A stretch of DNA of 18,515 nucleotides from Candidatus Vampirococcus lugosii (GTDB lineage Bacteria > Patescibacteriota > Gracilibacteria > Absconditabacterales > Absconditicoccaceae), in assembly GCF_018420025.1 (NCBI RefSeq), contig NZ_JAEDAM010000101.1, positions 1 to 18,515 of the forward strand, read 5' to 3'. Position numbers and translations under genes: made by a program. The notes beneath the pieces were generated by a model. It worked only from the letters and a program-made list of their open reading frames with translations. It did no database searches and was not told where the DNA came from. Below, piece after piece: positions 22 through 15,650 of the stretch (positions are counted from its first letter, which is position 1; each line of letters starts with the position of its first letter).

Positions 22-396
22 TTAATTTTTTTTTAAGATATTTCTTACATTACTAATACAATATTTTATTCAAAATTTTTTTTCTATATATTTCTGTGCA
101 TCTTCTGCGGTATTAAATCATTTCTTTTCATTTTCTTCTTTTATTATAGCTATTTCTTTTTCTGATAACTTTGAAGGTTTTCAATTATTTTTAGTTGATA
201 ATAATCACTCTATTCATCAATTATTATATTTTTTTACCCATCTTGCAATTGTATCTTCTGAAATATTTAAAAGTTTTTGAATCTGTTTATATTTTATTCA
301 CTCTAATCTAAATCTTAAACATTGTAATCTTTTTAATGATTTTCAGCTTTTTTCAGTTTTTTCTCTTAACTCTATTTCTTTTATTTTTTCTATCAT
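22..396 (-). CDS. IS630-family transposase, N-terminal helix-turn-helix part; apparently continues beyond the left edge after a -1 shift in an A9 run
   Basis: ATG 396..394, TAA 24..22, 124 aa with TGA=Gly: MIEKIKEIELREK...LLNISEDTIARWVKKYNNGGIEGLLSTKNNGKPSKLSEKE...FGIKYCISNVRNILKKN*. The order HTH / GxPSKL / second HTH matches IS630/Tc1-type transposase N-termini. The -1 frame after the A9 run (26..34) reads KLNFSFKQP up to the window edge. Confidence 0.7.
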
Positions 397-416
397 AATA
401 TTTTCATTATTTATAA

Positions 417-432
417 ATATATATATATATAT
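417..432. repeat. (AT)8 dinucleotide microsatellite, 21 nt upstream of the transposase ATG
   Basis: Direct reading: atatatatatatatat at 417..432. Confidence 0.9.
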
Positions 433-671
433 TATAACTATTCTTACTAAAAAAGCAAAATATTTTTAGTATATAAATTAAAAGTTATTATCATTATAAA
501 GATTTCCTTTATAAATTAAATAGTTTTCGGAACGAAGTGGAGAAAACACATTATTCTCCCCCTCCTTTTTTAGAAAAAATCAAATTTATTCCCCTTTGAA
601 AGCCTATCATTCCTTATTCTCCGTTAAAAAAATATTTTTTGAATTGCATATAACTAATTTTTAAATATTTA

Positions 672-1871
672 TTATTTAATAGTAAATGATCTAATAGTAT
701 TATAAATATTTTCTTGTACTACAGATTTAAAATCTATTGTTGATAATTCTCATTTTTTAAAAAGTTTGGATAATAAACTAGAACTAACTTCCAAAACTCA
801 ATTTAATTTTCATTTTTTTTCTAATAAAATTTTTAATTGATTTTGATCAAGTATTTTATATGTTTTATTTTTAATAACACTAATATAAAAATTATTTCAA
901 TAAATTCTAGATAAATTTTTATTTTGCGAGTAATTTATAAATATTTGCTTCATATTATTTTTTTGTTTTTCCAAATTATTAATATCTTTAGATATTTTTC
1001 AATACTCATCTATCATTGATTTCAAAGTTTTATTTCATATTTCAGAAATAGTTTCATCATTCATAAAACTATGAGCAAATAATGGACAAATAGATTTATA
1101 TTCACAAAATTTACATCAATAATTTTCTACTTCTTTAAATTCTGATTTATTTCACATATTAAAATTAAATCTTTTGGATTCTATTTCATTTATAATAAAA
1201 ATATATTTATCTTTTATTTTTTCCAAAGATAAATCATCAATTTGCCAAATATCTTTTATATCAAAATGTAAAAAATGTAATTGTGCATAAATATTTTTTA
1301 AATATTTTCAATATTTTTGTTTTATTCATAATGCATAAAGTGTAAGTTGTTCTTTATATTCCTCATTTTCTTGTGTTGGTAAATTTTTATTAGTTTTGTA
1401 ATCATTTATTATAAAATCGTCTCATTTTTTATCTAATCTATCAATTATTCATCTAAATTTTATATTCTCATTTAAACTAAAATTTATATTTTGTTCAGTA
1501 GATATAATTTTTATTGAATCAAAAGGATAATTTTCATTAAAATAATTTGTTATATATATTTCACCTCTTTTTATATAATCCGATAAATTTCAACTTCACT
1601 TTATAATTATTTCTTTTCATTCTTGTGAAATATCATCTATTTTTTGCTTCCAAATAGAATTATATTGTTTCATATAAAAATCTAAATCATTTTTTTGAAA
1701 AACATTTATATCATTATACAAATTTTCCAATACTTTATGAACAATTTCTCATAAAATCAAATCAGAAGTATATTCTTTCTCTTGCAATTTAATTTTATCA
1801 ATATATTTATATCTAAAAGCTAAAGGACATTTATTATATAATTGAATTTGAGAAAAAGAATATACTGACAT
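672..1871 (-). CDS. PD-(D/E)XK nuclease, RecB/AddB/Cas4-like, with Fe-S type cysteine pattern
   Basis: ATG 1871..1869, TAA 674..672, 399 aa with TGA=Gly. Motifs in order: SFSQIQLYNKCPLAFRYKYI, GEIVHKVLE, GIIDRLD, INDYKT, QLTLYALG, CKFCEYKSIC (1+3 Cys as in Cas4/AddB nuclease domains). A ~140-aa C-terminal extension is unassigned. Confidence 0.75.
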
Positions 1872-1918
1872 TCTAATATTATTTAATTATTTAAATCTTT
1901 ATTTTTTTATAAAAAAAT

Positions 1919-2953
1919 CTAAAAATCCCAAGTTCATTTCATACTACTAGATTGAGAATAATTAGTTACCGTAGTTTCAAAAAAGTTTGCTTTTTCGCTA
2001 TTTTGATCTTGTATTCTTTCCAAATGTTTATAAGGATTTTTTGTTGCATCTGGATATAGTGGTTTAATTCATAGACTTTCTAATCTCTGATTTGCAAGAT
2101 ATTTTGTATATCATATTATATTCTCGTCTGCCATTCATATTATTTTATTGTTTAGTATATGTTTGGACCATTCTATTTCTTGATTTACCGCTGTATCCAT
2201 CATTTTCAACAATAACTGTTCATCATAAATATCAGGGAATTCATTTTTTATTTCTTTTATAATATTAGCAAATATTACTACATGTGTTTCTTCATCTCTA
2301 CGAATATAATTAATCATTCTATCGCTTGCCAACATTTTATTATGATCTGCGAGAGTATCAAAAAAAGCAAATCAATTATAAAAATATATACTTTCCAAAA
2401 GCCAATTTGCTACTATACTTCTAAATAAATTTTGGTCATTAGGTTCATTAACAAAATCTTGATATATTTGTCATATAAATTTATTTCTTTCCAACAAATG
2501 TTTGTCTTCTCTTCGGAAATAAAGAATTTTTTCTCTTTTATTAGCTGATACTACAGTTTCCAATATTGTTTGATATGATTGAGAATGTATTGCTTCTTGA
2601 AAAGCCTGTATACTCAAAATTAAATTAACTTCAGGAGAGGTAATATAATCATTAATATTTGGTAAATTCATAGTTTGTATACTATCAAGAAAAGTCAAAA
2701 AAGAAATAATTCAATCATAAGCTTTTCTTTCATCATCATTTAATACTTCATCATATTCAACAGCATCTTTATTTAATCAAGAAACTTTTTCAGGTATCCA
2801 AAAATTTCCAAGCATTACTTTATACATTCATTTAGCCCAAGAATATTTTACATTATTTAAGTTAAATAATCAGGTTGTATTTCAATGTATTATTGTTCTA
2901 TCATCTATATCATCTCTTCAATCTGGATTAAATATTAAGTTTTTTTCTATCAT
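1919..2953 (-). CDS. nrdB: class I ribonucleotide reductase small (beta, R2) subunit
   Basis: ATG 2953..2951, TAG 1921..1919, 344 aa. Motifs: HGNTTGLFNLNNVKYSWAKGMY, NFWIPEKV, LDSIQT, AFQEAIHSQSY, ESIYFYNGFAFF, IRRDEETHV; ends WDF. Track ORFs 2135..2335 and 2471..2698 are in-frame fragments of this gene, split by TGA codons. Confidence 0.9.
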
Positions 2954-3453
2954 AATTTATTTACTATATTATAAAACTTTTCTGTTCTTTCTTCAACAGT
3001 TCAAGTAAGAGTATAATAATCTGGATAAAATATTTCTAATAAATCAACTATTCTATTGTCAATCTCTTTTTGAAATTCAATTCATTCAAATCTAACTCAA
3101 TCATTTTCTAACTCAAATTCAATAGGAATATAAAAAATTGCATCATATCTTTTTTTCAAATTTGCCACTTTTTCAAGAAAATCATAACAATATAATCATT
3201 CAGAATAAGCAAGTATATCATATATACTTCTATCTGATATAAAGTTTTTTGCTTTTTTCTCTTGTATTAGTTGTTGTATAAAAACATTATGTTGAAAATT
3301 TGATTTGTCTATCGGTTCCATATTTTTAGGATTACCCATAATTTCAATTAATTCTCTTGCTATTTCATTTATTTTTGTATAATTTTCTAATTCTAATTTT
3401 TCCAAAAGATTAGTTTTACCCACTCAATGAGCACCTGATATAGCTATTTTCAT
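2947..3453 (-). CDS. P-loop ATPase/kinase-like protein (AAA_28 / NadR C-terminal-like family)
   Basis: ATG 3453..3451, TAG 2949..2947, 168 aa. Walker A is ISGAHGVGKT, with the middle Gly encoded by TGA (3424..3426). Later motifs: FISDRSIYDILAY and YDAIFYIP. The 3' end overlaps the nrdB ATG (TTATGATAG). Confidence 0.7.
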
Positions 3454-3490
3454 ATTTAAATATACATTAAATAAATAAATTTAAATTATT

Positions 3491-4492
3491 TTATTTACTA
3501 TTTTTAACACCAAAAATATAAGTTAAAGAAGTTGCAAAAAATATAGAAGAGAAAGTACCAGCAATAACTCATATCATTAATGTAAATGAAAACAACTGTA
3601 TAACTCAACCTCAAAATATAAACATACTTATCAAAACTAATAAAGTGGAAAAGGATGTTGCCAAAGATCTTCTCATAGTTTGCCATATACTTTTATCAAA
3701 AATTTCTACATAATCAATATTATTATCTTTAATTTCTGATTTATTAATTTTAACTGTTTGTCAATTATCTTTTTCCAATTTTTTTTCTTTAGTATATGAT
3801 ATATTTTCTCTTATTCTATCAAATATTATAATAGTATCATTTATACTATATCACATAATAGTAAGTATAGAAACTATAAATATTAAATCAACTTGTATAG
3901 CACTATTTAGAAACATAAATATTCAATATGCTCATGCAGGAATCAATACATCAAAAAGCAATGTAAACATAGTAACTAATGCCAATAATCAAGGTGAAAG
4001 ATATTCTCTTATTCAAGAAAATGCAAATAACATATAAATTCAAATAAACAACAAACCAAACAGTATAGCAGTAATAGCTGCTTTTTTCATCCAATCTCAT
4101 ATACTAGGACCTATTATAGCATTTTCTAAAATATCATCTCAACTTGAAATATGTCAATTATCAATCAAATAATCTTTAGTTAAACTCGAGAGTAAATCAA
4201 CACTTTTATCATCAGATATATCTAATTCCAATATCAACGATGGATATCATTTTTTTTCTCAAATATAAACTCAAGGAGAATCAAATCAATTATCTACAAG
4301 CAATTTAGAAATTCATTCATCAACTCACTCCAAATTTTGAGATTCTACATCCAATATTAATTCCATTCATCATGTAAACTGTATTGAAAGTCTAAGATTA
4401 GAAAAAAACAATATTAATGAAATTAACATTAAAACAACACCAGACACTATCCAAAACATAGCATTTTTAATAACTGAAAACTTAATATCCAT
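3491..4492 (-). CDS. secF: protein-export membrane protein SecF
   Basis: ATG 4492..4490, TAA 3493..3491, 333 aa. Motifs: IQFTGGMEL, IIGPSIGDW, MGYSINDTIIIFDRIREN, RRSLATSFSTLL. Several conserved Gly are TGA. About 40 aa are inserted after the IREN motif. Confidence 0.85.
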
Positions 4493-4510
4493 AGTAAAAT
4501 TAAATTAGTA

Positions 4511-5251
4511 TTAAATTAAATCATTTAAAATTTGTATTTTTTTGTAAGCATTTTTTGCAGCTTCTTCATTAGACATCTTTTTTTTAGTTCAATATCACTC
4601 ACCAAATATTTCTCAATTTATATAAACAATACACTTATAATTTATAATATTTCATTTTTCATCAAATTCATGTTCATAATTTTCATAATAAGGAACATCT
4701 TTATATAACTTTTGAGAATATTCTTGAACCATAGTTTTATAACTTTTAACATTAGCAGATTTAATATTTTCTATTTTTGAAAAAATTTTATCTTTAACAA
4801 AAGATTCTGCCATATCAGCTCATATATCCAAATAAATATATCAAATCAATGCTTCCAAAGTATCAGACAAAATTGAATCTTTATTCCTTCATCAAGTTTT
4901 TTCTTCACCATAACCGAGGAAAACCATTTTATCCAAGAATATATCTCTTGCAACTTCTGCCAACATTTCTTCTCTTACTAAAGCAATTTTATATAATGTT
5001 AGTTTTGATTCAGGAACATTTTCAAAATATAAATAAAGCATTTTTGCTATCAAACAACCCAAAATAGAATCTCATAAAAATTCTAATCTTTCATTATCAG
5101 GTATAGTATAAGGCAAATCAGAAACATAAGATTTATGAAAAAATGAAATCATCATAAGCTCCTCATTTACAATTAATGACTTATCAATTCAATTCTTTGA
5201 AAGATAATCTTTATATGATGAAATTAATCATTTTGCTTTCTCCGACAACAT
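4511..5251 (-). CDS. rnc: ribonuclease III
   Basis: ATG 5251..5249, TAA 4513..4511, 246 aa. The signature is NERLEFLGDSIL (Gly = TGA at 5072..5074), followed by GGRNKDSILSDTLEALIGYIYLD and a C-terminal dsRBD-like segment. Confidence 0.9.
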
Positions 5252-5277
5252 ATTCAATAAAAAATTAAATATTAAAA

Positions 5278-5811
5278 TTAACTTATTATTTTATGTCAAA
5301 TTCAATTTATCAATTTATAACTATTATTATCACCATAAATTTTTGCCAACATAATCATTTCATTTAAAATAACATTTTTTGGTGTATTAATTAAATTTTT
5401 TTCAGTAAATCATAAAATAAATATTATTTTATCCACCATATCCATACTTGAAAATTCAAAAGTTTCAATATTTTCATTTATTAATTTTTCCAATTGTTCC
5501 AAACAAGTAGAAAAATTTAAAATCATAATAGATATATAATCAAAATCTAAATTTATTTCATAATTTCAAAAAAACTGATTATGTAAATATGAAATATCCA
5601 TATCCAAATTTGAAAAAGAACAAATTTCAGCAATATCTCTTCTTAATTCAATCAAATCTTTATCTGACATATTTTCATAATTAACTATTTTATCAACTTT
5701 TAATATATCATTAAAAAGAATATCTTCATTTGAAAGATATTCTGTAAAAAATTTTTGATAAAAATACAAAAAAACAATTTTCCTAGAAAGAATTCTTGAC
5801 TTTATATTCAT
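5278..5811 (-). CDS. nusB: transcription antitermination factor NusB-like
   Basis: ATG 5811..5809, TAA 5280..5278, 177 aa. The C-terminal part, MVDKIIFILGFTEKNLINTPKNVILNEMIMLAKIYGDNNSYKLINGIGHKI, matches the NusB core pattern (..tP..V.inE.i.lAk.y......k..NgvL.ki). The N-terminal half is divergent. Confidence 0.65.
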
Positions 5812-5841
5812 TAATTTAATTAATTATATTAATATACAAAA

Positions 5842-6069
5842 CTACTCTTCTATTATAGTCTCTTTACTTTTAGTTTTAATAGTAAGGATTTGTTTTCATG
5901 CATAAAATCAACAATGAGGACAAACTCTATGAGAAAGTTTTAAAGTATCACAATTATCACATTTAACTGTTGTAGCTTTATTCAACAACTTCTTTATAGA
6001 ATTAGTCTGCCAAACACTATGTCTATTTTTTTTCTTTGATATAGAAACTTTTTTCTTTGGTACTGCCAT
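5842..6069 (-). CDS. rpmF: 50S ribosomal protein L32
   Basis: ATG 6069..6067, TAG 5844..5842, 75 aa: MAVPKKKVSISKKKNRHSVWQ...CDNC...HRVCPHCGFYAGKQI. Both Gly in CPHCGFYAG are TGA codons. Confidence 0.9.
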
Positions 6070-6099
6070 TTAATAAATAATATTAATCTTATAAAAATA

Positions 6100-6378
6100 C
6101 TAATTTTCTACAATATCTACAAAAGTCTTTAGATATTTTTTTCAATCAAACCTCTCAACTTTTTTCTTTCTAAAAGAAACTTTACCATCAATTTTTGCAT
6201 GAACAGTAAAATCGTTAGTAATATAAACATTTTTTCAAGCTTTATATTTATCTCATTTTTGTCTTATAATTACATTTCCTGCTTTTGCAACTTGTCATCA
6301 AAACAATTTGACTCACCTATATTTAGGATTAGAATCTCTAAGATTTTTTGCACTTCATGCCGCTTTTTTGGTAGCCAT
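6100..6378 (-). CDS. rpmA: 50S ribosomal protein L27
   Basis: ATG 6378..6376, TAG 6102..6100, 92 aa: [51 protein letters not shown].... It aligns residue for residue with the bacterial L27 N-terminus. Six TGA codons all fall on conserved Gly, including the tandem TGA TGA at 6295..6300 (the FGG motif). Confidence 0.95.
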
Positions 6379-6563
6379 TTAAATTTTAATTTTTATAATA
6401 TAAAATATGTTATATATCGATTATGTATAATTATTTTTTTAAATTTTTCAAGACAAATTTTCTTTTTTATGATCACAAGATTAAATTATTATGAATAAAG
6501 TTTGTATTATTCAAAAACTTATTGATAAAAAAATCAATTCATTACCAATAATTGTTTATTTCC

Positions 6564-6598
6564 AAAAAAAACTGTAAACAACTCTACTATTTCTTACA
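6564..6598 (-). repeat. 35-bp element, copy B (inverted relative to copy A at 17959..17993)
   Basis: The minus strand reads TGTAAGAAATAGTAGAGTTGTTTACAGTTTTTTTT. This matches 33 of 35 positions of 17959..17993 on the plus strand. It lies 55 nt 3' of the stop of the 6653..6829 gene, in the same orientation. Confidence 0.85.
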
Positions 6599-6652
6599 TA
6601 TTAAATTATTGAAATAACAAAACACAAATACAATATAATTTATAAAAAATAT

Positions 6653-6829
6653 TTATTTATCTTTTTTATCTTTCATAACATATAAAGGTATTTGTGATAA
6701 TATTATTCAAATTGTCAGTCATATAAAACCAGCTTTAAGTATATTATCTTCAACAAAAATAATATAAGAAACAATTGAACCAAAAAATCATACACTTCAT
6801 AATATTTTAGATAATAATTCTTTACTCAT
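6653..6829 (-). CDS. small hypothetical membrane protein (58 aa, two hydrophobic segments)
   Basis: ATG 6829..6827, TAA 6655..6653: MSKELLSKILGSVGFFGSIVSYIIFVEDNILKAGFIGLTIGIILSQIPLYVMKDKKDK. It is open only if TGA=Gly. No family was recognised. Confidence 0.5.
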
Positions 6830-6869
6830 AATAATAATTAATTAATTTTATAAAATATAATATTATTTT

Positions 6870-8354
6870 TTAATAATCAAGTTTATGATAAACTATATAT
6901 GTATCTTTATAATCTTTTACAAAGTATCATTGTTCACTTAATTTATTTCTAAATTCATCTGCTTTTTTGTAATCTCTTTCTAATTTAGCTTTTCGTCTTT
7001 CTTGAGCAATTTGAGTTATAAAGTAAGGAATAGGCATTTTATCTAAATTTTCTTTTTTGTTTATCAAATCTTTAAACAAACCAAATTTAAAAATATTTAA
7101 ATCAAACCAAGCAAATAAATTTAATGATTCAACATTTAATTTATCAACATCTTTATTAAGAATACTTAATAATCTAGGAGTATTTAGATCATCCAATAAA
7201 CAATTCAAAATGTTTTTTAAAAATATTTTTGCTTCTTTAGTTTGTAAATTTTTCTCTATTTCTTTAATATCTCAAGTAGACATTTGTACTGAAGTTGAAC
7301 GAGGATTTGCCCATAATTTATTTACCAAATTTCTTTTAGTAATATATGCTTTATGAATTGCATCCCAATTAAATTTTAAAGAATTTCTATATTGAGCAGT
7401 AAAATAAAAATATCTTAAATCATATACTGTATATCATTTTTTTTCCAAATCTGGTATTGATAATGTGTCTCAAGAAGATTTAGAAAGTTTTTTCCCATCA
7501 AAATTTAAAAATTGTGAATGCATCCAATATTTTACCCATGGTTTATCACTAACAAAAGAACATTCACTTTGAGCTATTTCATTAGTATGATGAGTTGTTA
7601 TATGATCTATTCATCAAGTATGTATATCAAAATTTTTTCATAAAATAGCTTTTGACATTGCAGAACATTCTATATGCCATCAAGGAAATCACAATCACCA
7701 AGGACTATTTCGTTCCATATGTCTTTTTTCTCATCTTTTGGAAAATTTCCAAAGAGCAAAATCTGTAATATTTTTTTTATTATCATTAGAAATTCTAGCT
7801 CAAGATTCTATTCATAAAATATGTTTTTCATAATTTTCTCACATAAGTTTACCATAATCATCAATTTTGGAAGTGTCCATATACATTCAATCATTATTAA
7901 TTTTGTATACAAAACCTTTTTCTTCCAAAGATTTTATAAGATCAATTTGTTCTTGAATATAATCTGTTGCTTTTGGAAAAAAATCAAAATTTAATTCTAA
8001 CTTATTAATATAATTTATAAAATTTTTTTCATATTTTTTGGCAATATCCCAAGCAGTAAGTCATTCTCTAATAGCTCATTTTTCCATTTTATCTTGTCAA
8101 GAGTCAGCATCATCAGTAAGATGTCAAACATCTGTAATATTAACAACATGTTTCAAAGGGTAATTTAATATATTTCTTATTATATCTCATAATAATCATG
8201 CAAAAACAAAAGCTCTTAAATTTCAAAAATGAGGATCAGAATATACTGTAGGACCACAAGTATATATTCATACAAAATCTTTTTTTCATTCATCAAAAAA
8301 CGGAATAAATTTTTCTTTTTCTCTAGTTAATGTATTGTATATGTACAAATTCAT
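6870..8354 (-). CDS. cysS: cysteine--tRNA ligase
   Basis: ATG 8354..8352, TAA 6872..6870, 494 aa. Motifs: [19 protein letters not shown] (HIGH-type motif, Gly = TGA), [24 protein letters not shown]-terminal [17 protein letters not shown]. Track ORF 6927..7208 is an in-frame fragment of this gene. Confidence 0.9.
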
Positions 8355-8599
8355 ATTATAAAAAATACTTAGATAAGTAAATTACTTGTATTATATTAAA
8401 ATATATAAAATATTCAAGTTTTTTATTATTTATTTTACAATAAAAAAGTAAATAATCTAGTTTATTATTCTAATAAGTTTTTCAGTATATAATTTAAAGA
8501 TATAACATTGTTCATTAAAAATTAAAAACAATATTGTTATACTAACAATTTTATTTTTTATGACATTTTAAAATTGCTATCACAAAAAACAAAAAAAAC

Positions 8600-8627
8600 T
8601 TGACTTATATATTATTTTGTTTATAAT
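8600..8627 (+). promoter_or_regulatory. near-consensus sigma70-type promoter
   Basis: TTGACT at 8600..8605, a 16-nt spacer, then TATAAT at 8622..8627. This is the best -35/-10 pair I could find in the window. Confidence 0.6.
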
Positions 8628-8662
8628 AACATTTCCTTGTCTATCCTAGTTAGGAGGTCAAA

Positions 8663-8806
8663 ATGACTGAAGAAGTAGTGTTAAAATGCCCTGATGGTAT
8701 TACAAGGCGATTTTTTGTCCAAAAAGAGGGTGTTATATCTCCCAAATTTGCTATCTATGAAAGAGCATTTTTTTGGAAACAAAAAAATCGGAGAAACAAG
8801 AAATAG
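8663..8806 (+). CDS. candidate 47-aa basic small protein
   Basis: AGGAGG at 8652..8657 lies 5 nt before ATG 8663; TAG at 8804..8806. Sequence: MTEEVVLKCPDGITRRFFVQKEGVISPKFAIYERAFFWKQKNRRNKK. There are no TGA codons and no family was recognised. Coding status is uncertain. Confidence 0.4.
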   Translation: MTEEVVLKCPDGITRRFFVQKEGVISPKFAIYERAFFWKQKNRRNKK

Positions 8807-8865
8807 AAAGTCGGTCCCAGATGTTATCTCTATGAGATACAATAATTGACTTCTATTTCTATTTA

Positions 8866-8893
8866 CCAAGGATTATATATCCTTGGTTTTTTT
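8866..8893 (+). terminator. rho-independent terminator
   Basis: CCAAGGAT (8866..8873), loop TATAT, ATCCTTGG (8879..8886), followed by T7 (8887..8893). Confidence 0.8.
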
Positions 8894-8930
8894 GTATTTT
8901 AATATATAATATATATTTAATAAACTTATA

Positions 8931-9218
8931 TTAAAAAACAGCTTGTAAAACAACTTTTCAATCAAGATTAGCTTTAACAAATGTATTACAAGTTGTAAAT
9001 GATTCTCAATTTGAAACAAAATTATTTCAATTAGTATCAATTAAAAACTCTGATCATTTTATCACAAAACAACTACAAATTCAACAAGTTCAATTCATAC
9101 ATGAAAAAGGCATATCAAATCATGAATTAATTATTTGTTTTAATATATTTTCTTTATCATTTGCTTCAAATGTTTTCATATAATCTCCAAAATTATCTAA
9201 TATATATATCTGAATCAT
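8931..9218 (-). CDS. 2Fe-2S ferredoxin (plant-type fold)
   Basis: ATG 9218..9216, TAA 8933..8931, 95 aa. The motif MPFSCMNGTCGICSCFVIKG fits C-x4-C-x2-C, with the conserved Gly residues encoded by TGA. A later FTTC supplies the fourth Cys. Confidence 0.75.
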
Positions 9219-9251
9219 TTTAATTATTAAATATTTAAATAAAAAATATAA

Positions 9252-9707
9252 TTATATTAATAAATTCATAAGATCTTTATTTTTAGGACTTATTAATATT
9301 TTTTTTCAATCAAACATATTTATTCTATAAATATTATTTAATGAAGTAGTAAACATAACATCTCAAGTAATAAAATTTACTCTAATTCATAATCAATAAT
9401 AAAAAGGAACTTTTCCTATATAATCAATTTTTTCTATATCTTTTTTTTCCAATAAATATTTTCTTTTTCAAGGAGTAATTATTGTAATTCAATTATTATC
9501 TATTTCATATTTTAGATTATTTACAAGTCTTATAATAAAAAAAACACTAACTCAAGATATAATTAATACTATAAAATATAAAATATCATAATTTCACATA
9601 AAATATGCAAATACAGAAAAGTTTAATAAAAAAATAAAAATAATTCAATTAAAAATAATCAAAAATTTAATTCAAAAATCTTTATATCAATAAGTAATAT
9701 TTGACAT
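9252..9707 (-). CDS. hypothetical membrane protein (two N-terminal TM segments plus a bacterial PH-like C-terminal part)
   Basis: ATG 9707..9705, TAA 9254..9252, 151 aa: MSNITYGYKDFGIKFLIIFNGIIFIFLLNFSVFAYFMGNYDILYFIVLIISGVSVFFII..YEIDNNGITIITPGKRKYLLEKKDIEKIDY... The PH-like assignment rests only on the pattern. Confidence 0.5.
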
Positions 9708-9724
9708 ATTATATCATTAATTTA

Positions 9725-10780
9725 TTAAAAATTAAATTGATAAAAAATCATAACTAAAGCAATCAATGAAAGAACTCATTGAATAAGCCATAATTTCATA
9801 ACTATAGTATATTCAGCATTTCATTTATATTCTAATAAATGATGAAATGGTGCTATAGCAAATAGTTTTTTCTTAAAAATTTTTTTCCAAAATATCTGTA
9901 AAAAAGAAGTAGACAATTCTACCCAAAATATCAAAAACAAAAACATAAAAGGGATTATTATACCAACTCTAATATCTAATAAATAAATTAAAGAAGAGAT
10001 TAATCATCATAGTGCAAGTGCACCACTATCTCACATAAATATTTTTGCTGGATTGATATTAAACCACAAAAAAGCTAATAAACTACCCAAAACTATAGCA
10101 ATAACAGTAGTTGCCAAATACCAACCATAAAAAAAAGTAATAATTCAAAGAACAGCTAAAATCATAATACAAAGTCAACCTACTAATCAATCCAAACCAT
10201 CAGTAATATTTATTGCATTAACTACAGCTATTGTAAAAATAAAAGTAAAAATTGAATAAAAAAATCAAATATCTACACTTCAAGTAAAAGGCCATAAATT
10301 TATTGAAGTAATTCATAATCTAATATAAAACCAATAACTGATAAATGCAGAAAATAAAAACATCCAAACAAGTTTCATTTTAGCAGTAAGTCATTTTATC
10401 TTACCTATTCATTTGATATTTAAATAATCATCTATAAGTCATAGTATTCACATACTAAAAAAAGCAAAAAGTATTATATATGTTTCTTGTCTTGTAACTA
10501 AAGAAAAATTTATAAAATCAAGATATTGTAATATATAAGAAAACAAAACTAATAATAAAACTATAAAAAGCACCAATCATCATCCCATAGTTGGTGTACC
10601 TATTTTATGTGAATGTAATTTATTAAAAATAATTGCCTTACCTCATCAAGTTCAATCTTCACGAAGATTTTTACCAGCCTTTATATAAGATAATAAATAA
10701 ATATAAAAAGGGTACAAAATTAAACTTATAAAAAAAGCAAACATTAAATAAAGCAATATACTATCAAGTTTCAATAACAT
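9725..10780 (-). CDS. mraY: phospho-N-acetylmuramoyl-pentapeptide transferase
   Basis: ATG 10780..10778, TAA 9727..9725, 351 aa. Motifs: GTPTMGGGL, LIDDYLNIKG, NAINITDGLDGLVGG, MGDSGALALGG, APFHHLLEYKG. Many of the conserved Gly are TGA. Confidence 0.9.
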
Positions 10781-10892
10781 TTAAAAAAATAATTTAATTA
10801 AAAAACATTTTCATATATTTAATGATTTTAAAAATAAAATCAATTCATATTATTTGATAAAATTTAATAAATATAAAAAAGTTCAAAAAATA

Positions 10893-11888
10893 CTATATAT
10901 CAAAAAATCAATTATTAGTTTCTTCTTTTTTAGTATTATTTGATAAATTTATAAGATCATTTATATCATAATTAAATTCTTTATTATCAATAAATATTTT
11001 ATTATGTTTCAAAAAATATAATAAAACTCATAAAGTCATTTTTACATCATTTTTACAATATAATTTTACTTTATTGTATGCATTTTGGTCTCAAGATTTT
11101 ATATATTCTTTTAAGTATTGTTCTCATTCCAATCAAGATTCCAAAGTTTTTCATATAGACAATAAACTTTTACTTACTGCATTAAGTCATATTCTTTTTC
11201 ATGTAAGTCTTCGTATAAATAAAAATAAATCTATACTTTTTTCATTTAAATCATTTATTTTTTCATCTCAATAATCTGTATTATAAATACTAACAGGATT
11301 ATCAAAATAAATACTATTATATCACACTATCCATCAATCAAAACTTAACATAAAATCAACAAATTTTGTAATACTTTTTCTATCTACTAATCTATATTTT
11401 ACAGATTTTAAATGATCTTGATTTGAAATTACAGTATAAGCTATCATAAATTTCATATTTTTTAAATCATTTATATTTCATATAGTTTCAATATCATATA
11501 CCAAATAAGGTTTATCTTTTATAGTTTTATATTTTCATTGTTTAAATTCTTCAAATAGAGTTTGAGAAATAGTTTTATTTTCTTTTATTAGTTTATTTAC
11601 TTTTTTTTGACTTTTTAATTGAGAATGAAAATTATTTATTTCATCTTTATCCATACTTATTTGTATTTTTTCTTTTTCATCACACAAAATATATCATTCT
11701 CAATTTTTTTCTATTTTGAACACTGGTCAATTTCATTCAAAAAAATAAACACAATCACCATATTTAGTACTATCTTTCAAAAACTCTTTCAAATAATTAT
11801 ATTTATTTTTTAAATATAAATTTTGTAAATTTTTTATAAATCAAGTTTTAACTTCAAATAATTGTTCATAAGTAAATTTTTTATACAT
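10893..11888 (-). CDS. RNase H-like / DEDD-type 3'-5' exonuclease domain protein (PolB-exonuclease-like, YprB-type)
   Basis: ATG 11888..11886, TAG 10895..10893, 331 aa. Motifs: LVYDIETIG (Exo I), VGYNSIYFDNPV (Exo II), LYCKNDVKMT (Exo III). The first ~125 aa are unassigned. Confidence 0.65.
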
Positions 11889-11948
11889 TATTTTTTTAAC
11901 TAAAATAAAAAACTTTTAATTAAAACTAAAATATTTAAAAAATATTTT

Positions 11949-12926
11949 CTAAAAAACAAATCCTACTTTTTTATAAATATCTTTTATTTTATCATTAGCT
12001 ATATTTTCTACTTTACTATTTCAATTTTTAAGAATTTTTTGTACTTCTTCATCAGATATATTTTCTTTTTTTTCTTTGATTGGATTTGTAAAATTTATTA
12101 TTTTCTCATACAAAAACTCTTTAATTTCTTTGAAAGATAATCAACCTTGTATATATCAATCACGAATTTTTTTGTCTTCTTCAAAATTTAAAAATAATTT
12201 CAAAATATTGTAAACATTACACTCATCAGGATTTTTTGGTTCATTAACTCATAAGGACATAGTAGGAATTGATTTAACTTTTTTTAACAAAAGATTATTT
12301 TCATCAAAAAGTCAAATATAATTATTATAAGATTTTGACATTTTTCTTCAGTCAATACCAGTAATTGTTGCCAAATTTTCAACTATTTTTGCTTGTGGAA
12401 GTTTGAAAGTATCACCAAATAAATTATTAAATTTACCAGCAATATCTCTTGCATATTCTACATGTTGTTTTTGATCTTTACCAACTGGAACATAATCAAC
12501 ATCATAAAGCAAAATATCGGAAGCCATAAGTATAGGATAACAAAAAGTTCCAACTGTTGTTTTTTCTTCTTTATCTTTTGCCAAAGCATCTTTGTAAGCA
12601 TGCATTCTTTTCATAAATCCAACATTAGTAATACAAGACAAAACCCAATTTAATTCAGCATGTGCAGAAATTAGTGCAGGATTATAAATATATGTCTTAT
12701 CTGGATTTATTCAACAAGCTAAATAAGTTTTGATAGCACTTAATGAATTTTCTTTTATAAAATTTCAATCATGAATAGCAGTTAAACTATGCATATTTGC
12801 CAAAAACATAAATGTTTCATATTCTCAAATTTCTTGAAAATCAATAATTTGTTTGATAGATGCAAAATAATTTCATATATGTAAATTATCAGAAGTAGGT
12901 TTAATTCAAGTAAGAACTCTTTTCAT
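11949..12926 (-). CDS. trpS: tryptophan--tRNA ligase
   Basis: ATG 12926..12924, TAG 11951..11949, 325 aa. Motifs: LTGIKPTSDNLHIGNY (Gly = TGA at 12873..12875), VPVGKDQKQHVE, GRKMSKS. Track ORF 12348..12641 is an in-frame fragment of this gene. Confidence 0.9.
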
Positions 12927-12954
12927 ATCAAAAATATATTATAAATTAAAATAA

Positions 12955-14736
12955 TTATTTAATTAATTTTTCCAATTCATCAATCATATCTTGTATAACT
13001 TTTAATCAATCTTTATAAAATTTATCTTGAGAAATATCAATATCTATAGTTTGTAAAAGTTCATAAGGTGTAAGACTTCCTCATGCTCTCAAAATATTTT
13101 TATATTTGGGAATGAAAGATTTTCCTTCATTTTGATATTGTTTGTACAATGCAAATGATAATATATTACCAAAAGAATATGAATAACAATAAAAAGGACT
13201 AGCAAAAATATGTGGGATAGCAGACCAAGTAGTTTCTTGTTCAGCAGGAACATCGTATTCTACAGTTTCTCATGAAAGTTCAATTTGACATTCTCTCCAT
13301 ATTTTATTAAAATCTTTATAAGTTAAATTATTACCCTCATAAAAACTTTCATGGACTTTTTTTTCAAAATTAACATATTGAATTTGTCTGAAAATAGTTG
13401 CAAAAGAATTTTCTATTTGTTTTGCCAAAAACGAAACTTTTTCATTATCATTTAAAGTTAATTTAATATAATCAGCGAATATAAGTTCATTAAAAATAGA
13501 AGCTGTTTCTGCCAAACAAAGTCAAGTATCATAAACTTTTCTTGGTTGAGATTGAGAAAAATATCAATGAATAGCATGCCCAAATTCATGAGCAATAGTA
13601 CTTACATTATCTAATGTATCAGAATAATTTAAGAAAACAAAACTTTTATGATCTTTATCATAACTTGCAAAAGCTCATCACCTTTTTCATTTTTGAGGAA
13701 AAACATCTACTTGACCATTAACAAAAAGATCTTTTGTAAATTGAGCAAATTCTTGATCAAAATTTTTCATACAATCCAAAAGAAGTCAAATTCATTCTTC
13801 AAACTCAATTTTTTTATCTTCATCAGATACAGGAGCAAAAACATCGTAATACATAAGTTTTTGTTGCCCTAATAATTTAGCTTTTATTTTATTATATCTT
13901 TGATAAAGAAGGAATGAATTTGTAATTTGTTCCAAAAGTTTTTGAACAATTTCATTAGAAATTTCTTCTGAATTATTTCTAGGTCACATTACTCAATCAA
14001 ATCATCTAATTTTAACATCAACAATCCAATCTTTTACAACACTTGCATAAACATTTCATAAAGAAATTTGTATTTTATTATCCAAATATTTCTCTCTAAT
14101 TGCATCAAATGCTTTTTTTCTTGTCTCAGGATTAGCAGAAAGTCTTAAATTTCTAACTTGATCTTCAGTAAGTTCTTTTTCTTCGCCATCTATATTTAAT
14201 ATAAAAGAAAAACTTCAAGTAAGTTCTTCATGTAAATTTGATAAAACATTAGAATTCGCATTTGATTTTAAATTTAAAGCAAATTCTGTTTTTTCATCCA
14301 ACAAATATTTTACAGAATTTGCTTTTTGTAAAAACCAATTTTTATAATTTTGTAATTCTTCTTTTTTTGAAAATTCTATCATTTTTTCATATCAAATTTC
14401 TTTTATTTCTTGATCAACAAATATTAAATCATTACTAAGATTAGTAACAAAATCATCAAATTCTTGATTTTTTTTCAATACATCTTGATTTTGAGTATCT
14501 AATGCTGATAAAAAATGTAAATATCTTCAAATATTTACAGCAAGATAAGAAATCTTATCATCTAAATCAAACATTTCCAAAAATCATTGAAAATCTAATT
14601 TTGATATATTTCATTTAAATTTTGAAATAAAATTTCTAACCATATTTTCTACTTCTTGCATATCATTATTTATTTTTGGATCATTAATATCTTTATAATA
14701 CTGTTCCAAATCCCATTTAGTTTGTATTTTTTGCAT
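12955..14736 (-). CDS. pepF: oligoendopeptidase F (M3B metallopeptidase)
   Basis: ATG 14736..14734, TAA 12957..12955, 593 aa. Motifs: KRGGAFASY (GG = TGA TGA), zinc motif IAHEFGHAIH, LAETASIFNE. Track ORF 13270..13515 is an in-frame fragment of this gene. Confidence 0.85.
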
Positions 14737-14840
14737 ATATTTTATATATTTATATTAAATAAATTATATCTTATATATACATAATTTATCAATAAATTCA
14801 AACCCAAATTATTAAAATAACAAAAAAATACTTTATAAAC

Positions 14841-14968
14841 TAATATTTTTTATAAAGTATTTTCTTATATTAAGGAATTTATTTAAATAATTTTTTATTA
14901 TCTATAGCTCAAATAATAATTTCAAGAATCTTCCAATATTTCTCTAAATTTACTTGAATCTGAATCTA
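14841..14968. repeat. direct repeat, copy 1 (3' end of the 14898..15446 gene plus its downstream region)
   Basis: By eye it aligns with 15531..15650 at roughly 90% identity with one 8-nt indel. The first 34 nt are identical, and a 45-nt block is identical (14911..14955 = 15593..15637). Confidence 0.9.
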
Positions 14969-15446
14969 TACCTTTTATCATATTATGTACTTCATCAATA
15001 TTATTAGCATTAATATATCAATTATCTCAAGTATTTTCAAGTTCTGCTATCAAAGCATATCATCAATTTTCTGTTCAACGATTATTAAGTGAAATATAAT
15101 AATAATTTTTTCAATCCAAAGGATCACTAGGTAAACTATCCATATATCTAGGAACAAGATAATCTTGTATTTCACTAAGTTCAACCATTCAATCACTTTC
15201 TGGATAACTTCATCTTCATCTACCAGAATAATAAATTGATAAAGCCATTGAAGTTTGTCATAAATGTGATAATCTCGCACTATCTCTTTCTTCTGAAAGA
15301 GCTTGTTCATTTTGTTCATTATCAAGATCTGAATTAGATTGTTCATTATCAAGATTTTGATTATCTTCATTTTCATCAACTTCTCATAAACAACCTCCAA
15401 AAACTGGAACAAATCAGATTAATAATAACAATAATAATTTTTTCAT
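14898..15446 (-). CDS. putative lipoprotein with type IV pilin / pseudopilin-like globular domain
   Basis: ATG 15446..15444, TAA 14900..14898, 182 aa with TGA=Gly. The N-terminus MKKLLLLLLIGFVPVFGGC has a signal peptide and a lipobox-like Cys. An acidic D/E/N/Q linker follows. Then come RDSARLSHLGQTSMALSIYYSGRGRGSYPES...YLVPRYMDSLPSDP...YYYISL...GGYALIAELE, the pattern of the pilin head domain that normally follows the hydrophobic N-terminal helix. Confidence 0.6.
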
Positions 15447-15530: not shown

Positions 15531-15650
15531 TAATATTTTTTATAAAGTATTTTCTTATATTAAGAAATTCATTTAGTTATTATCTAACTATTAAATAATA
15601 ATTTCAAGAATCTTCCAATATTTCTCTAAATTTACTTAAATCTGAACCTA
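15531..15650. repeat. direct repeat, copy 2 (orphan copy of the pilin-like gene's 3' end)
   Basis: See copy 1. On the minus strand it still reads ...GSDLSKFREILEDSGNYYLIVR*, compared with ...DSDSSKFREILEDSGNYYLSYR* in the intact gene. Confidence 0.9.

What the first reader, a model, noticed from the sequence alone, without database searches (positions are those of the whole stretch)
8600..8893. Stand-alone, GC-enriched promoter-to-terminator unit with the only strong Shine-Dalgarno in the window: small protein or unclassified structured RNA
This unit is inserted on the plus strand in the middle of a long run of minus-strand genes.

- It has the best promoter in the window (TTGACT-16-TATAAT) and a clean intrinsic terminator (8866..8893).
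- It is visibly more G+C-rich than its surroundings, which in AT-rich genomes usually marks RNA genes.
- It carries a perfect AGGAGG 5 nt before an ATG, although the other genes here lack an AGGAGG-type SD sequence.
- The resulting 47-codon ORF (basic C-terminus WKQKNRRNKK, no TGA codons) matches no family I recognise.

The transcript is also densely structured:
- A 9-bp all-A/U stem capped by a GAAA tetraloop lies inside the ORF (8767..8788).
- A 13-bp helix swallows the stop codon (8799..8812 paired with 8848..8860).
- A nested 6-bp hairpin sits at 8825..8839.
- CCTTGT (8635..8640) is complementary to ACAAGG (8702..8707).

No downstream plus-strand gene exists, so it is not a leader or riboswitch for another gene. 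It could be a dual-function RNA, a lineage-specific housekeeping RNA, or a highly expressed micro-protein.
Basis: seen in the sequence. Interest (0 to 1): 0.65.

Follow-up and report, generated by a model that had tools for sequence, protein, structure and literature searches.

The report
Frameshifted small-protein gene cassette, not RNA

Summary
The sequence features are all present at the stated coordinates. The unit is a protein-coding gene, not a structured RNA.

- **Homologues.** An exhaustive HMMER search found three small homologues: two annotated hypothetical proteins of Candidatus Vampirococcus lugosii and one from a related SR1 metagenome.
- **Frameshift.** The homologues match the ORF up to the T-run at 8768-8774. 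After it they match the +1 frame. An independent assembly of the same organism has T6 where the window has T7. The true product is therefore about 61 aa, and the "basic C-terminus" is out of frame.
- **Coding selection.** In-frame pN/pS is 0.36-0.56, against 0.7-1.7 in shifted frames.
- **RNA structure.** Rfam finds nothing.
- **Unusual signature.** All four copies are lone promoter-SD-ORF-terminator cassettes. SD-like cores of 5 nt or more occur in 3 of 4 copies, against 2 of 90 other genes. Their 16 Gly codons include no TGA, although TGA encodes 75-78% of Gly genome-wide. TGA (or TAA-TAA) sits at the natural C-terminus just before the terminator. The mRNAs are unusually stable.

This signature resembles the "code-11-compatible" phage genes reported for these phyla. 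The protein's function is unknown; the predicted fold is four β-strands plus a helix.

The parts
8600..8627 (+). Sigma-70-type promoter: -35 TTGACT (8600-8605), 16-nt spacer, -10 TATAAT (8622-8627). The inferred transcription start is near 8634.
   Evidence: 11/12 match. The paralogues carry TTGACT or TTGAAA with a 16-nt spacer at the same distance, 57-66 nt before the ATG. Consensus match only; no transcript data.
8652..8657 (+). Shine-Dalgarno-like AGGAGG, 5 nt upstream of the start codon.
   Evidence: SD-like cores of 5 nt or more occur in 3 of 4 family genes, against 2 of 90 other genes in the SR1 loci held.
8663..8774 (+). Conserved ORF, first part (frame 0): codons 1-37, MTEEVVLKCPDGITRRFFVQKEGVISPKFAIYERAFF, ending in the T-run.
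   Evidence: Homologues P0123, P0124 and P0125 align here. pN/pS is below 1.
8768..8774 (+). T7 homopolymer, the frameshift site. The independent Logan assembly of the same organism (L148) has T6, which restores the conserved frame.
   Evidence: It is the only difference between the two assemblies across window 652-12966, and the only one of 47 A/T runs of 7 nt or more that differs.
8775..8846 (+). Conserved ORF, second part (+1 frame in the window): codons 38-61, GNKKIGETRNRKSVPDVISMRYNN.
   Evidence: Matches P0125 CNKKIGKVENSESVPEVIRSYYHE, P0124 GNTKIAESPNRKSVADIIRLHFPNN and P0123 RNKRVGQCKDKKNIPKLIAMKYATQ.
8663..8806 (+). The 47-codon ORF as it reads in the window (T7 allele). Its last 10 residues (WKQKNRRNKK) and its TAG stop are out of the family's frame.
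   Evidence: This product has no homologue in that frame.
8847..8849 (+). TGA at the family's natural C-terminus. It is Gly under code 25 and a stop under the standard code. Paralogue L152 has TAA-TAA at this position.
8850..8909 (+). Tail read only if TGA is decoded as Gly (LLFLFTKDYISLVFLYFNI, TAA at 8907-8909). It runs through the terminator, and its stop lies 14 nt beyond the T-run.
   Evidence: The tail is conserved only where the terminator hairpin is.
8865..8893 (+). Intrinsic terminator: stem ACCAAGGAT/ATCCTTGGT (8865-8873 with 8879-8887), loop TATAT, and T7 (8887-8893).
   Evidence: All 7 core pairs are kept in all four family copies, three through compensatory changes.

Best explanation
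SHOWN.
- The unit is a monocistronic protein-coding cassette: a sigma-70-type promoter, a roughly 29-nt 5' UTR with AGGAGG, an ORF, and an intrinsic terminator.
- The ORF encodes a roughly 61-residue basic protein. It belongs to a tiny family seen so far only in Absconditabacteria (SR1) of the Vampirococcus group. The family comprises this copy, two annotated paralogues in Ca. Vampirococcus lugosii (VAMP_22n155 and VAMP_237n65), and one copy in a related metagenomic SR1 genome.
- The window almost certainly comes from V. lugosii.
- In the window the ORF is broken by one extra T in a homopolymer (T7 against T6 in an independent assembly). That produces the 47-codon ORF.
- The family is under purifying selection at the protein level, and its synonymous sites are saturated.
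- The predicted fold is four β-strands followed by a C-terminal helix.
- Every copy has the same autonomous architecture and the same 'standard-code-style' signature inside a code-25, essentially SD-free genome: an SD-like motif, no internal TGA, elevated GC3 and rare codons, TGA (or TAA-TAA) at the end of the conserved domain, and a covarying terminator 8-27 nt later.

INFERRED.
- The cassette is a moron-like expression unit. It either derives from, or is maintained like, the 'code-11-compatible' phage or mobile genes reported for Absconditabacteria and Gracilibacteria.
- Its SD gives it privileged, ASD-dependent initiation.
- The protein is probably a small nucleic-acid-binding or regulatory factor.
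- In the SR1 cell UGA is read as Gly. Translation therefore either adds a roughly 20-residue non-conserved tail or runs to the 3' end of the terminated mRNA.
- The T7 allele is either a whole-genome-amplification or assembly error, or a real null or phase variant.

CONFIDENCE. The figure of 0.7 covers the statement as a whole. The core claim, a real protein-coding gene of this family that is frameshifted in the window, I put at about 0.93. The mobile or phage-pool origin is about 0.4, and the nucleic-acid-binding function about 0.25.
For: Homology and frame:
- Exhaustive phmmer hits P0123, P0124 and P0125 have E-values of 4e-5 to 4e-4, and the profile search gives 1e-27 to 1e-35.
- The alignment continues in the T6 frame.
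- tblastn finds both halves of the protein in the window in different frames.
- T6 against T7 is the sole difference across about 12 kb between the two assemblies.

Organism:
- The paralogues and the window's contig come from the same runs, SRR13241708 and SRR13241709.
- The source names are Ca. V. lugosii.
- The window's code is TGA=Gly. PMC8080830 reports code 25 for V. lugosii.

Coding selection:
- In-frame pN/pS is 0.36-0.56 with pS 0.55-0.84. Shifted frames give 0.7-1.7. Differences concentrate at third codon positions.

Architecture.

SD: cores of 5 nt or more in 3 of 4 family genes, against 2 of 90 other genes.

TGA:
- None of 16 family Gly codons is TGA, against 368 of 490 (75%) and 345 of 440 (78%) genome-wide.
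- The conserved Gly positions vary among GGT, GGG and GGA but are never TGA.

Codon usage: GC3 is 0.16-0.29 against about 0.09, and 11 of the 47 codons are rare in this genome.

Terminator covariation.

Structure:
- Mean pLDDT is 82.
- The model superposes on an uncharacterised 62-aa siphovirus protein at TM 0.75, rmsd 1.8 Å.

Precedents:
- Code-11-compatible phages of these phyla lack in-frame TGA (PMC10746230).
- Loss of the anti-SD motif is reported only for a Parcubacteria subgroup (PMC9297842).
Against: - No function is assigned. Pfam, NCBIfam, PHROGs, PADLOC and PDB sequence searches find nothing significant. PDB Foldseek has no hit with E below 0.6.
- No sequence relative was found in GenBank phages or in IMG/VR. 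The phage or mobile origin therefore rests on the compositional signature and one structural match with E=0.09.
- No phage genes or insertion scars flank the cassette. Its neighbours are housekeeping genes.
- The back-up stop after TGA lies 20-22 codons away and beyond the T-run. That is not the 'close proximity' described for the phages.
- The gene caller behind L148 did not call the intact T6 ORF.
- Promoter and terminator are consensus matches only. There are no transcript or peptide data.
- Only four distinct family members exist, so all comparative statistics are thin.
Confidence: 0.7

Rival explanations
1. It is a native, vertically inherited SR1 small-protein gene. Its odd features are selected within the SR1 cell. 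The SD would confer selective or autoregulated translation, as rpsU does in SD-blind Bacteroidia. Avoidance of internal TGA, the terminal TGA and the stable mRNA would tune expression, for example through slow UGA decoding before the terminator or a long mRNA half-life.
For: - The family is found only in SR1 genomes and has no phage homologue.
- The paralogues are anciently diverged, with saturated synonymous sites, yet all keep the signature. That implies ongoing selection.
- The neighbours are housekeeping genes.
- A precedent exists for a single SD-bearing gene in an SD-poor lineage (PMC13000453 and PMC9976891).
Against: - Highly expressed native genes such as L27 use TGA freely: 8 of its 10 Gly codons. 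Expression level alone therefore does not explain the avoidance.
- No known mechanism would make UGA special at one position in an organism expected to lack RF2.
- A bS21 identity was tested and not found.
Confidence: 0.3
2. The unit is primarily a structured non-coding or dual-function RNA, and the ORF is secondary or incidental.
For: - Fold stability is z -3.2 to -3.6 in the window copy, and -2.75 and -3.2 in two paralogues. All are below every one of the 39 control coding windows.
- GC is elevated relative to the surroundings.
- The unit has its own promoter and terminator and no downstream gene.
Against: - No Rfam family matches, and ARAGORN finds no tRNA or tmRNA.
- None of the internal helices is conserved. 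They are paired in 60-75% of cells including the reference, against 40-52% in the slid controls.
- Protein-level purifying selection is clear, with saturated synonymous sites and differences concentrated at third codon positions.
- The A/U stem is explained by Phe and Lys codons.
- The fourth paralogue has z = -1.6.
Confidence: 0.06
3. The window copy is a decaying pseudogene. On this view the T7 frameshift is real and fixed in at least part of the population, so this paralogue makes only a truncated 47-aa product or nothing.
For: - The window carries T7.
- Two other paralogues could supply the function.
- The source annotation and the Logan gene caller both leave the interval empty.
Against: - An independent assembly of the same organism has the intact T6 ORF.
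- The genome derives from MDA and MALBAC-amplified DNA of about 10 cells (PMC8080830), where homopolymer errors are plausible.
- The promoter, SD, remaining ORF and terminator show no other lesions.
Confidence: 0.3

Closest known systems
Hypothetical proteins VAMP_22n155 (MBS8121737.1) and VAMP_237n65 (MBS8122270.1) of Candidatus Vampirococcus lugosii, and the metagenomic homologue P0124/P0128
   Same: - They are 46-57% identical to the corrected protein over about 60 residues, with invariant positions P10, D11, G12, T14, R15, F17, K21, E22, G23, Y32, E33, F37, N39 and I55.
- They share the promoter-SD-ORF-TGA/TAA-terminator cassette, the TGA-free ORF and the elevated GC3.
   Different: - The window copy carries a +1T frameshift and is not annotated.
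- VAMP_237n65 ends in TAA-TAA instead of TGA and has only a weak GGGGA motif in place of a canonical SD.
- No member has a known function.
Code-11-compatible phages predicted to infect Absconditabacteria and Gracilibacteria (PMC10746230)
   Same: These genes reside in, or target, TGA=Gly hosts yet lack in-frame TGA, so they can be read under either code. TGA can appear at gene ends.
   Different: - Those are whole phage genomes. Here single cassettes sit between housekeeping genes of the bacterial chromosome, with no phage genes nearby.
- The back-up stop lies 20-22 codons downstream and beyond the terminator, not close by.
- No sequence homologue was found in the phage collections.
Phage 'morons': autonomous promoter-gene-terminator units with deviant base composition (from my own knowledge of the lambdoid-phage literature)
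   Same: The unit has its own sigma-70-type promoter and its own factor-independent terminator. It contains a single small ORF, and its composition differs from that of its neighbours.
   Different: - It is not located in a recognisable prophage.
- It is multi-copy as diverged paralogues.
- Promoter and terminator activity are untested.
rpsU (bS21) of Flavobacteriia, the one strongly SD-bearing gene in an SD-blind lineage (PMC13000453, PMC9976891)
   Same: Both are small basic proteins whose genes carry a strong SD in a genome where SD sequences are otherwise nearly absent.
   Different: - There is no detectable bS21 homology.
- The predicted fold of four β-strands plus a helix is not, as far as I know, that of the largely helical bS21; no bS21 structure was compared here.
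- Absconditabacteria often lack bS21 altogether (PMC9297842).
- The resemblance is an analogy of logic, not membership.

Membership tests
Any Rfam RNA family, including SRP RNA, 6S RNA, RNase P RNA, tmRNA and known sRNAs | A covariance-model score at or above the family's gathering threshold | tested here: not met
   No match at gathering thresholds over the whole window. With permissive filters on 8500-9000 the best match is RsaOG at 24.6 bits against a threshold of 50 (E=0.13), driven by the terminator. ARAGORN finds no tRNA or tmRNA.
Conserved structured RNA (unclassified) | Helices maintained, with covariation, in homologous sequences | tested here: not met
Only the terminator core is paired in 100% of cells, with 3 compensatory pairs.
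Vampirococcus small-protein family (VAMP_22n155 / VAMP_237n65) | Significant sequence similarity across the roughly 60-residue domain | tested here: met
   phmmer E-values are 4e-5 to 4e-4 with the truncated query. The corrected sequence is 45-57% identical, with 15 invariant columns. tblastn finds both halves in the window.
Vampirococcus small-protein family (VAMP_22n155 / VAMP_237n65) | An uninterrupted ORF of 61-63 codons up to TGA or TAA | tested here: not met
   The window has T7 at 8768-8774, giving a frameshift and a TAG stop at codon 48. The feature is met in the T6 allele of contig L148 from the same organism.
Vampirococcus small-protein family (VAMP_22n155 / VAMP_237n65) | Lone cassette architecture: -35 and -10 elements with a 16-nt spacer, a purine-rich motif before the ATG, and a terminator hairpin plus T-run soon after the ORF | tested here: met
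Protein-coding gene under selection | An excess of synonymous over non-synonymous change in the proposed frame only | tested here: met
   In-frame pN/pS is 0.36-0.56, against 0.7-1.7 in shifted frames.
Ribosomal protein bS21 | A match to the bS21 profile or to bS21 chains of solved ribosomes | tested here: not met
   No Pfam or NCBIfam hit at E up to 10. phmmer against all PDB chains gives no hit at E up to 10. The bS21-like basic tail was an out-of-frame artefact.
Code-11-compatible phage or mobile genes (PMC10746230) | Absence of in-frame TGA in a TGA=Gly host background | tested here: met
   None of 16 family Gly codons is TGA, against 75-78% genome-wide.
Code-11-compatible phage or mobile genes (PMC10746230) | A TGA stop backed by another stop codon in close proximity | tested here: inconclusive
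   The next TAA lies 20-22 codons downstream, at or beyond the terminator's T-run. One paralogue has TAA-TAA instead.
Code-11-compatible phage or mobile genes (PMC10746230) | Location on a phage or prophage, or sequence relatives on phages | tested here: not met
   The neighbours are cysS, a Fer2 gene, mraY and other housekeeping genes. There are no relatives in GenBank phages or IMG/VR. The only links are a structural match at TM 0.75 to a siphovirus protein and a weak PHROG hit at E=0.007.
Type I toxin or dual-function sRNA | A short hydrophobic membrane peptide and/or a conserved regulatory RNA domain | tested here: not met
   The protein is basic and soluble-looking, with a fold of four β-strands plus a helix. 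There is no conserved RNA domain. An antisense RNA was not tested.
PUR-repeat or dsRBD-like nucleic-acid-binding folds | Significant structural similarity | tested here: inconclusive
   The best PDB hits are the dsRBD of DHX9 (E=0.65, TM 0.55) and Pur-alpha repeat III (E=1.3, TM 0.45). Neither is significant.

The most novel reading that the evidence does not exclude
The cassettes may be kept 'bilingual' on purpose. TGA-free ORFs with an SD, a sigma-70 promoter, a TGA stop and an intrinsic terminator would be expressed correctly in a standard-code, SD-using cell. One such setting would be a shuttle phage or mobile element that also replicates in standard-code bacteria. More speculatively, the setting could be the gammaproteobacterial prey of this epibiotic predator. 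Alternatively, UGA placed just before a terminator could act as a context-dependent stop, or as a programmed non-stop (tmRNA-coupled) signal, in a UGA=Gly organism.
Probability: 0.1. Interest if true: 0.85.

Novelty: new variant of a known kind. Interest (0 to 1): 0.45.

Why it matters
Taken alone, this is an unannotated, frameshifted copy of a hypothetical small-protein gene. That matters mainly as an annotation correction.

The family-wide signature is the more interesting part. The paralogues have diverged to saturation at synonymous sites. Even so, in a genome where 75% of Gly codons are TGA and SD sequences are essentially absent, they all do the following:
- avoid TGA internally;
- place TGA at the C-terminus in three of the four copies (the fourth has TAA-TAA);
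- carry a purine-rich SD-like motif (a core of 5 nt or more in three of the four);
- fold into unusually stable mRNAs (three of the four).

This gives a concrete, testable handle on how code-25 bacteria handle genes written for the standard code, and on whether UGA is always Gly in them. It may also help trace gene flow between SR1 predators, their phages and standard-code bacteria.

Tried and rejected
1. **Known RNA.** Rfam at gathering thresholds, Rfam with permissive filters, and ARAGORN all found nothing.
2. **Word-indexed protein search with the 47-aa ORF.** It found nothing, because the index needs shared 5-mers. Only the exhaustive HMMER search found the family.
3. **Synteny through cysS.** 147 loci from genomes and metagenomes were fetched. 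The nearest are only 50-62% identical, and none carries the unit by nhmmer, blastn or tblastn. In the two nearest relatives the slot holds a YceD/DUF177-like gene, to which the unit shows no similarity, so it is not a remnant of that gene.
4. **Exact-protein look-ups.** The 47-aa ORF, the antisense 62-aa ORF and a CysS fragment are not on record.
5. **bS21 hypothesis.** It was prompted by the SD and the basic tail. It was rejected because there is no profile or PDB match and the tail is out of frame.
6. **Phage or plasmid origin by sequence.** No matches.
7. **Defence-system membership.** No PADLOC match.
8. **SD-sequestering 5' UTR hairpin.** It is suggestive in two copies but not significant against shuffled controls, and it is absent in the other two.
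9. **Insertion scars or flanking repeats.** Only AT-rich low-complexity matches.
10. **Antisense ORF 8681-8869 and the +2-frame ORF.** No support for either.
Full report
**Context.**
- The window has 21% G+C, and long ORFs appear only if TGA is read as sense.
- TGA sits where conserved glycines are expected, for example in the CysS GGxDHxxxHH motif, so the code is table 25.
- The window's CysS has its closest named relative in Ca. Absconditicoccus praedator (57% identity), and its other close relatives are unnamed metagenomic proteins at 54-62%.
- The window overlaps Logan contig SRR13241708_136 (L148) at 99.75% identity.
- Proteins named Ca. Vampirococcus lugosii occur in the same runs. The window is therefore almost certainly V. 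lugosii.
- V. lugosii is an SR1 epibiotic predator of Halochromatium. Its genome was assembled from MDA and MALBAC-amplified DNA of consortia of about 10 cells and annotated with table 25 (PMC8080830).

**Checking the observation.**
- The promoter TTGACT-16-TATAAT at 8600-8627 scores 11/12 and ties with three other sites as best in the window.
- The terminator 8865-8887 plus T7 is the best of four terminator-like sites, against one expected by chance.
- AGGAGG at 8652-8657 lies 5 nt before the ATG at 8663. It is the only AGGAGG on the + strand, and none of the 17 other genes has an AGGAGG-type SD.
- The 47-codon ORF spans 8663-8806.
- GC is 0.31 against a background of 0.21.
- All four helices exist.
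- The transcript folds more stably than shuffles, with z = -3.6, or -3.2 without the terminator.

**Is it a known RNA?** No.
- Rfam gives nothing at gathering thresholds, and only sub-threshold matches driven by the terminator with permissive filters.
- ARAGORN finds no tRNA or tmRNA.

**Is the ORF real?**
- The first tests were negative. There was no Pfam or NCBIfam hit and no word-indexed homologue.
- Codon usage looked foreign. GC3 is 0.255 against 0.094, 11 of the 47 codons are rare, and the codon score is lower than every 47-codon window of the real genes, although higher than 99.5% of off-frame windows.
- Comparing the window with L148 gave the key clue. Across window 652-12966 the only difference is the length of the T-run at 8768-8774, T7 in the window and T6 in L148. 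That run lies inside the ORF.
- The exhaustive HMMER search then found three small homologues of 62, 83 and 85 aa.
- They align with residues 3-41 of the ORF. Beyond the T-run they continue to align with the frame read by the T6 allele: FFGNKKIGETRNRKSVPDVISMRYNN against YFCNKKIGKVENSESVPEVIRSYYHE, GFGNTKIAESPNRKSVADIIRLHFPNN and FFRNKRVGQCKDKKNIPKLIAMKYATQ.
- tblastn recovers both halves in the window in two frames.
- Nei-Gojobori counts show purifying selection in that frame only. pN/pS is 0.36-0.56 with saturated pS of 0.55-0.84, shifted frames give 0.7-1.7, and differences are concentrated at third codon positions.

**The family.**
- The members are VAMP_22n155 and VAMP_237n65 of V. lugosii and one protein from ENA sample ERZ27265998. 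That sample also holds the SR1 relative whose CysS is 62% identical.
- Nothing else appears among 1.84 billion representative proteins.
- V. lugosii therefore has at least three paralogues.
- No curated family, PHROG, defence model or PDB sequence matches significantly.
- AlphaFold2 on the five-sequence alignment gives mean pLDDT 82 and a fold of four β-strands followed by a helix.
- The PDB has no significant structural neighbour. The best hits are a dsRBD and a PUR repeat, with E of 0.65 or more.
- In BFVD an uncharacterised 62-aa siphovirus protein superposes at TM 0.75 and rmsd 1.8 Å, with Foldseek E=0.09.

**RNA structure revisited.** On an alignment of the four complete units, only the terminator core is maintained. 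All 7 pairs are kept in all copies, three through compensatory changes. The other helices fare as follows:

| Helix | Pairs kept in the other three copies |
|---|---|
| 13-bp helix | 8, 3 and 7 of 13 |
| A/U stem with GAAA loop | 5, 2 and 7 of 7 |
| Nested hairpin | 5, 1 and 5 of 6 |
| CCTTGT/ACAAGG | 4, 0 and 5 of 6 |

- Per-helix pairing is 60-75% including the reference, against 40-52% when the partners are slid.
- The A/U stem is just TTT TTT GGA AAC AAA AAA, the codons for Phe-Phe-Gly-Asn-Lys-Lys.
- The mRNAs are nevertheless unusually stable as a class. z is -3.2, -2.75, -3.2 and -1.6. Thirty-nine control coding windows give mean 0.00, sd 0.95 and minimum -2.26.
- This is a thermodynamic property without a conserved architecture.

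**What is unusual.** All four copies are lone cassettes with the same layout:
- a -35 element, TTGACT or TTGAAA, with a 16-nt spacer, 57-66 nt before the ATG;
- a purine-rich motif 5-7 nt before the ATG (AGGAGG, AAGGAG, AGAGG or GGGGA);
- 61-63 codons;
- then TGA in three copies, or TAA-TAA in one, within one residue of the same alignment position;
- then a hairpin plus T-run 8-27 nt later.

Three features set them apart from their genomes.
- **SD use.** SD-like cores of 5 nt or more occur in 3 of 4 family genes but in only 2 of 90 other genes in the SR1 loci held.
- **TGA avoidance.** TGA encodes 75% (368 of 490) and 78% (345 of 440) of glycines in the two genomes, and L27 uses it eight times. 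Yet none of the 16 family glycines is TGA. The invariant glycines do vary among GGT, GGG and GGA, so synonymous change has occurred without ever reaching TGA.
- **Codon composition.** GC3 is 0.16-0.29 against about 0.09.

Under code 25 the terminal TGA would be read as Gly.
- The ORF would then run through the terminator to a TAA that lies at, or 14-20 nt beyond, the T-run.
- The product would either gain a non-conserved tail of about 20 residues or be made from an mRNA that lacks a stop codon.
- The tail is similar between copies only where the hairpin nucleotides are similar.

**Interpretation.**
- The core conclusion is secure. This is a small protein-coding gene cassette belonging to an uncharacterised SR1-specific family, and it is frameshifted in this assembly.
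- The signature matches what was reported for some predicted phages of Absconditabacteria and Gracilibacteria. Those phages are 'code-11-compatible', with no in-frame TGA, and use TGA only at gene ends (PMC10746230).
- The promoter-gene-terminator layout with deviant composition is that of a phage 'moron' (from my own knowledge).
- I therefore favour an origin in, or maintenance like, such a bilingual mobile gene pool. That step is inferred. No sequence relative was found in phage collections, the neighbours are housekeeping genes, and there is no insertion scar.
- The main rival is a native gene whose SD and codon choices are selected in the SR1 cell. This would be analogous to rpsU in SD-blind Bacteroidia (PMC13000453 and PMC9976891). 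Loss of the anti-SD is reported only for a Parcubacteria subgroup, and these clades often lack bS21 (PMC9297842).
- The protein's function is unknown. Being small and basic, with weak resemblance to nucleic-acid-binding folds, it is most plausibly a nucleic-acid-binding or regulatory factor. That is a low-confidence guess.
- Whether T7 is an amplification or assembly error or a real allele cannot be decided here.

**Verdict.** The family's standard-code-style signature in a code-25 genome is the part worth following up.

Noticed in passing
L155:1517-2464 and L155:2490-3551 (V. lugosii contig SRR13241708_29): A C5 DNA methylase (PF00145) and the adjacent 353-aa gene contain 22 and 17 Gly codons, all GGN, and no TGA, in a genome where 75% of Gly codons are TGA. 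This is probably a restriction-modification pair recently acquired from a standard-code donor. It lies about 2.5 kb upstream of the family paralogue at L155:6001.
   Followed up: partly
L149:2966-3481 and L151:7371-7865, compared with window 8382-8930: In the two nearest relatives a YceD/DUF177-like gene lies upstream of cysS and is transcribed divergently from it. In the window that slot holds the cassette, followed by a 2Fe-2S ferredoxin-like gene (8931-9218, minus strand; PF00111, E=3.6e-9). Local gene order is therefore not conserved.
   Followed up: partly
window 12967-15366 and 15531-15650: Apart from the T-run, all differences between the window and contig L148 cluster here: 5 SNPs in the oligoendopeptidase F gene, then dense SNPs and indels at 14987-15366. 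Window 15531-15650 also matches an earlier segment at 87.5% (L148-rc 14189-14316, about window 14840-14967), and two minus-strand ORFs end in the same ...SKFREILEDSWNYYL motif. This looks like a duplicated or variable surface-protein-like region, or an assembly chimera.
   Followed up: no
window 8634-8862; L155:5966-6218; L157:4220-4453: The family mRNAs are thermodynamically far more stable than ordinary coding segments of the same genome, with z of -2.75 to -3.2 against a control minimum of -2.26. No helix is shared between copies. The cause is unknown. Selection for mRNA half-life and a by-product of foreign composition are both possible.
   Followed up: partly
window 8865-8893 compared with L155:6219-6250: The terminators of two paralogues are 27/30 identical at the nucleotide level, although the proteins are only 52-57% identical and synonymous sites are saturated. 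The 3' end of the cassette is far more conserved than its coding part. Possible causes are gene conversion or strong constraint.
   Followed up: no
P0125 (VAMP_22n155), residues 8-39: There is a weak match to phrog_25208, a 63-position phage family of unknown function (E=0.0067). The other family members do not reproduce it.
   Followed up: no
window 22-465 (minus strand): An ORF at the window's edge reads like the helix-turn-helix N-terminus of a transposase (for example ...NISEDTIARGVKKYNNGGIEGL...). This was judged by eye only and was not scanned against any library.
   Followed up: no
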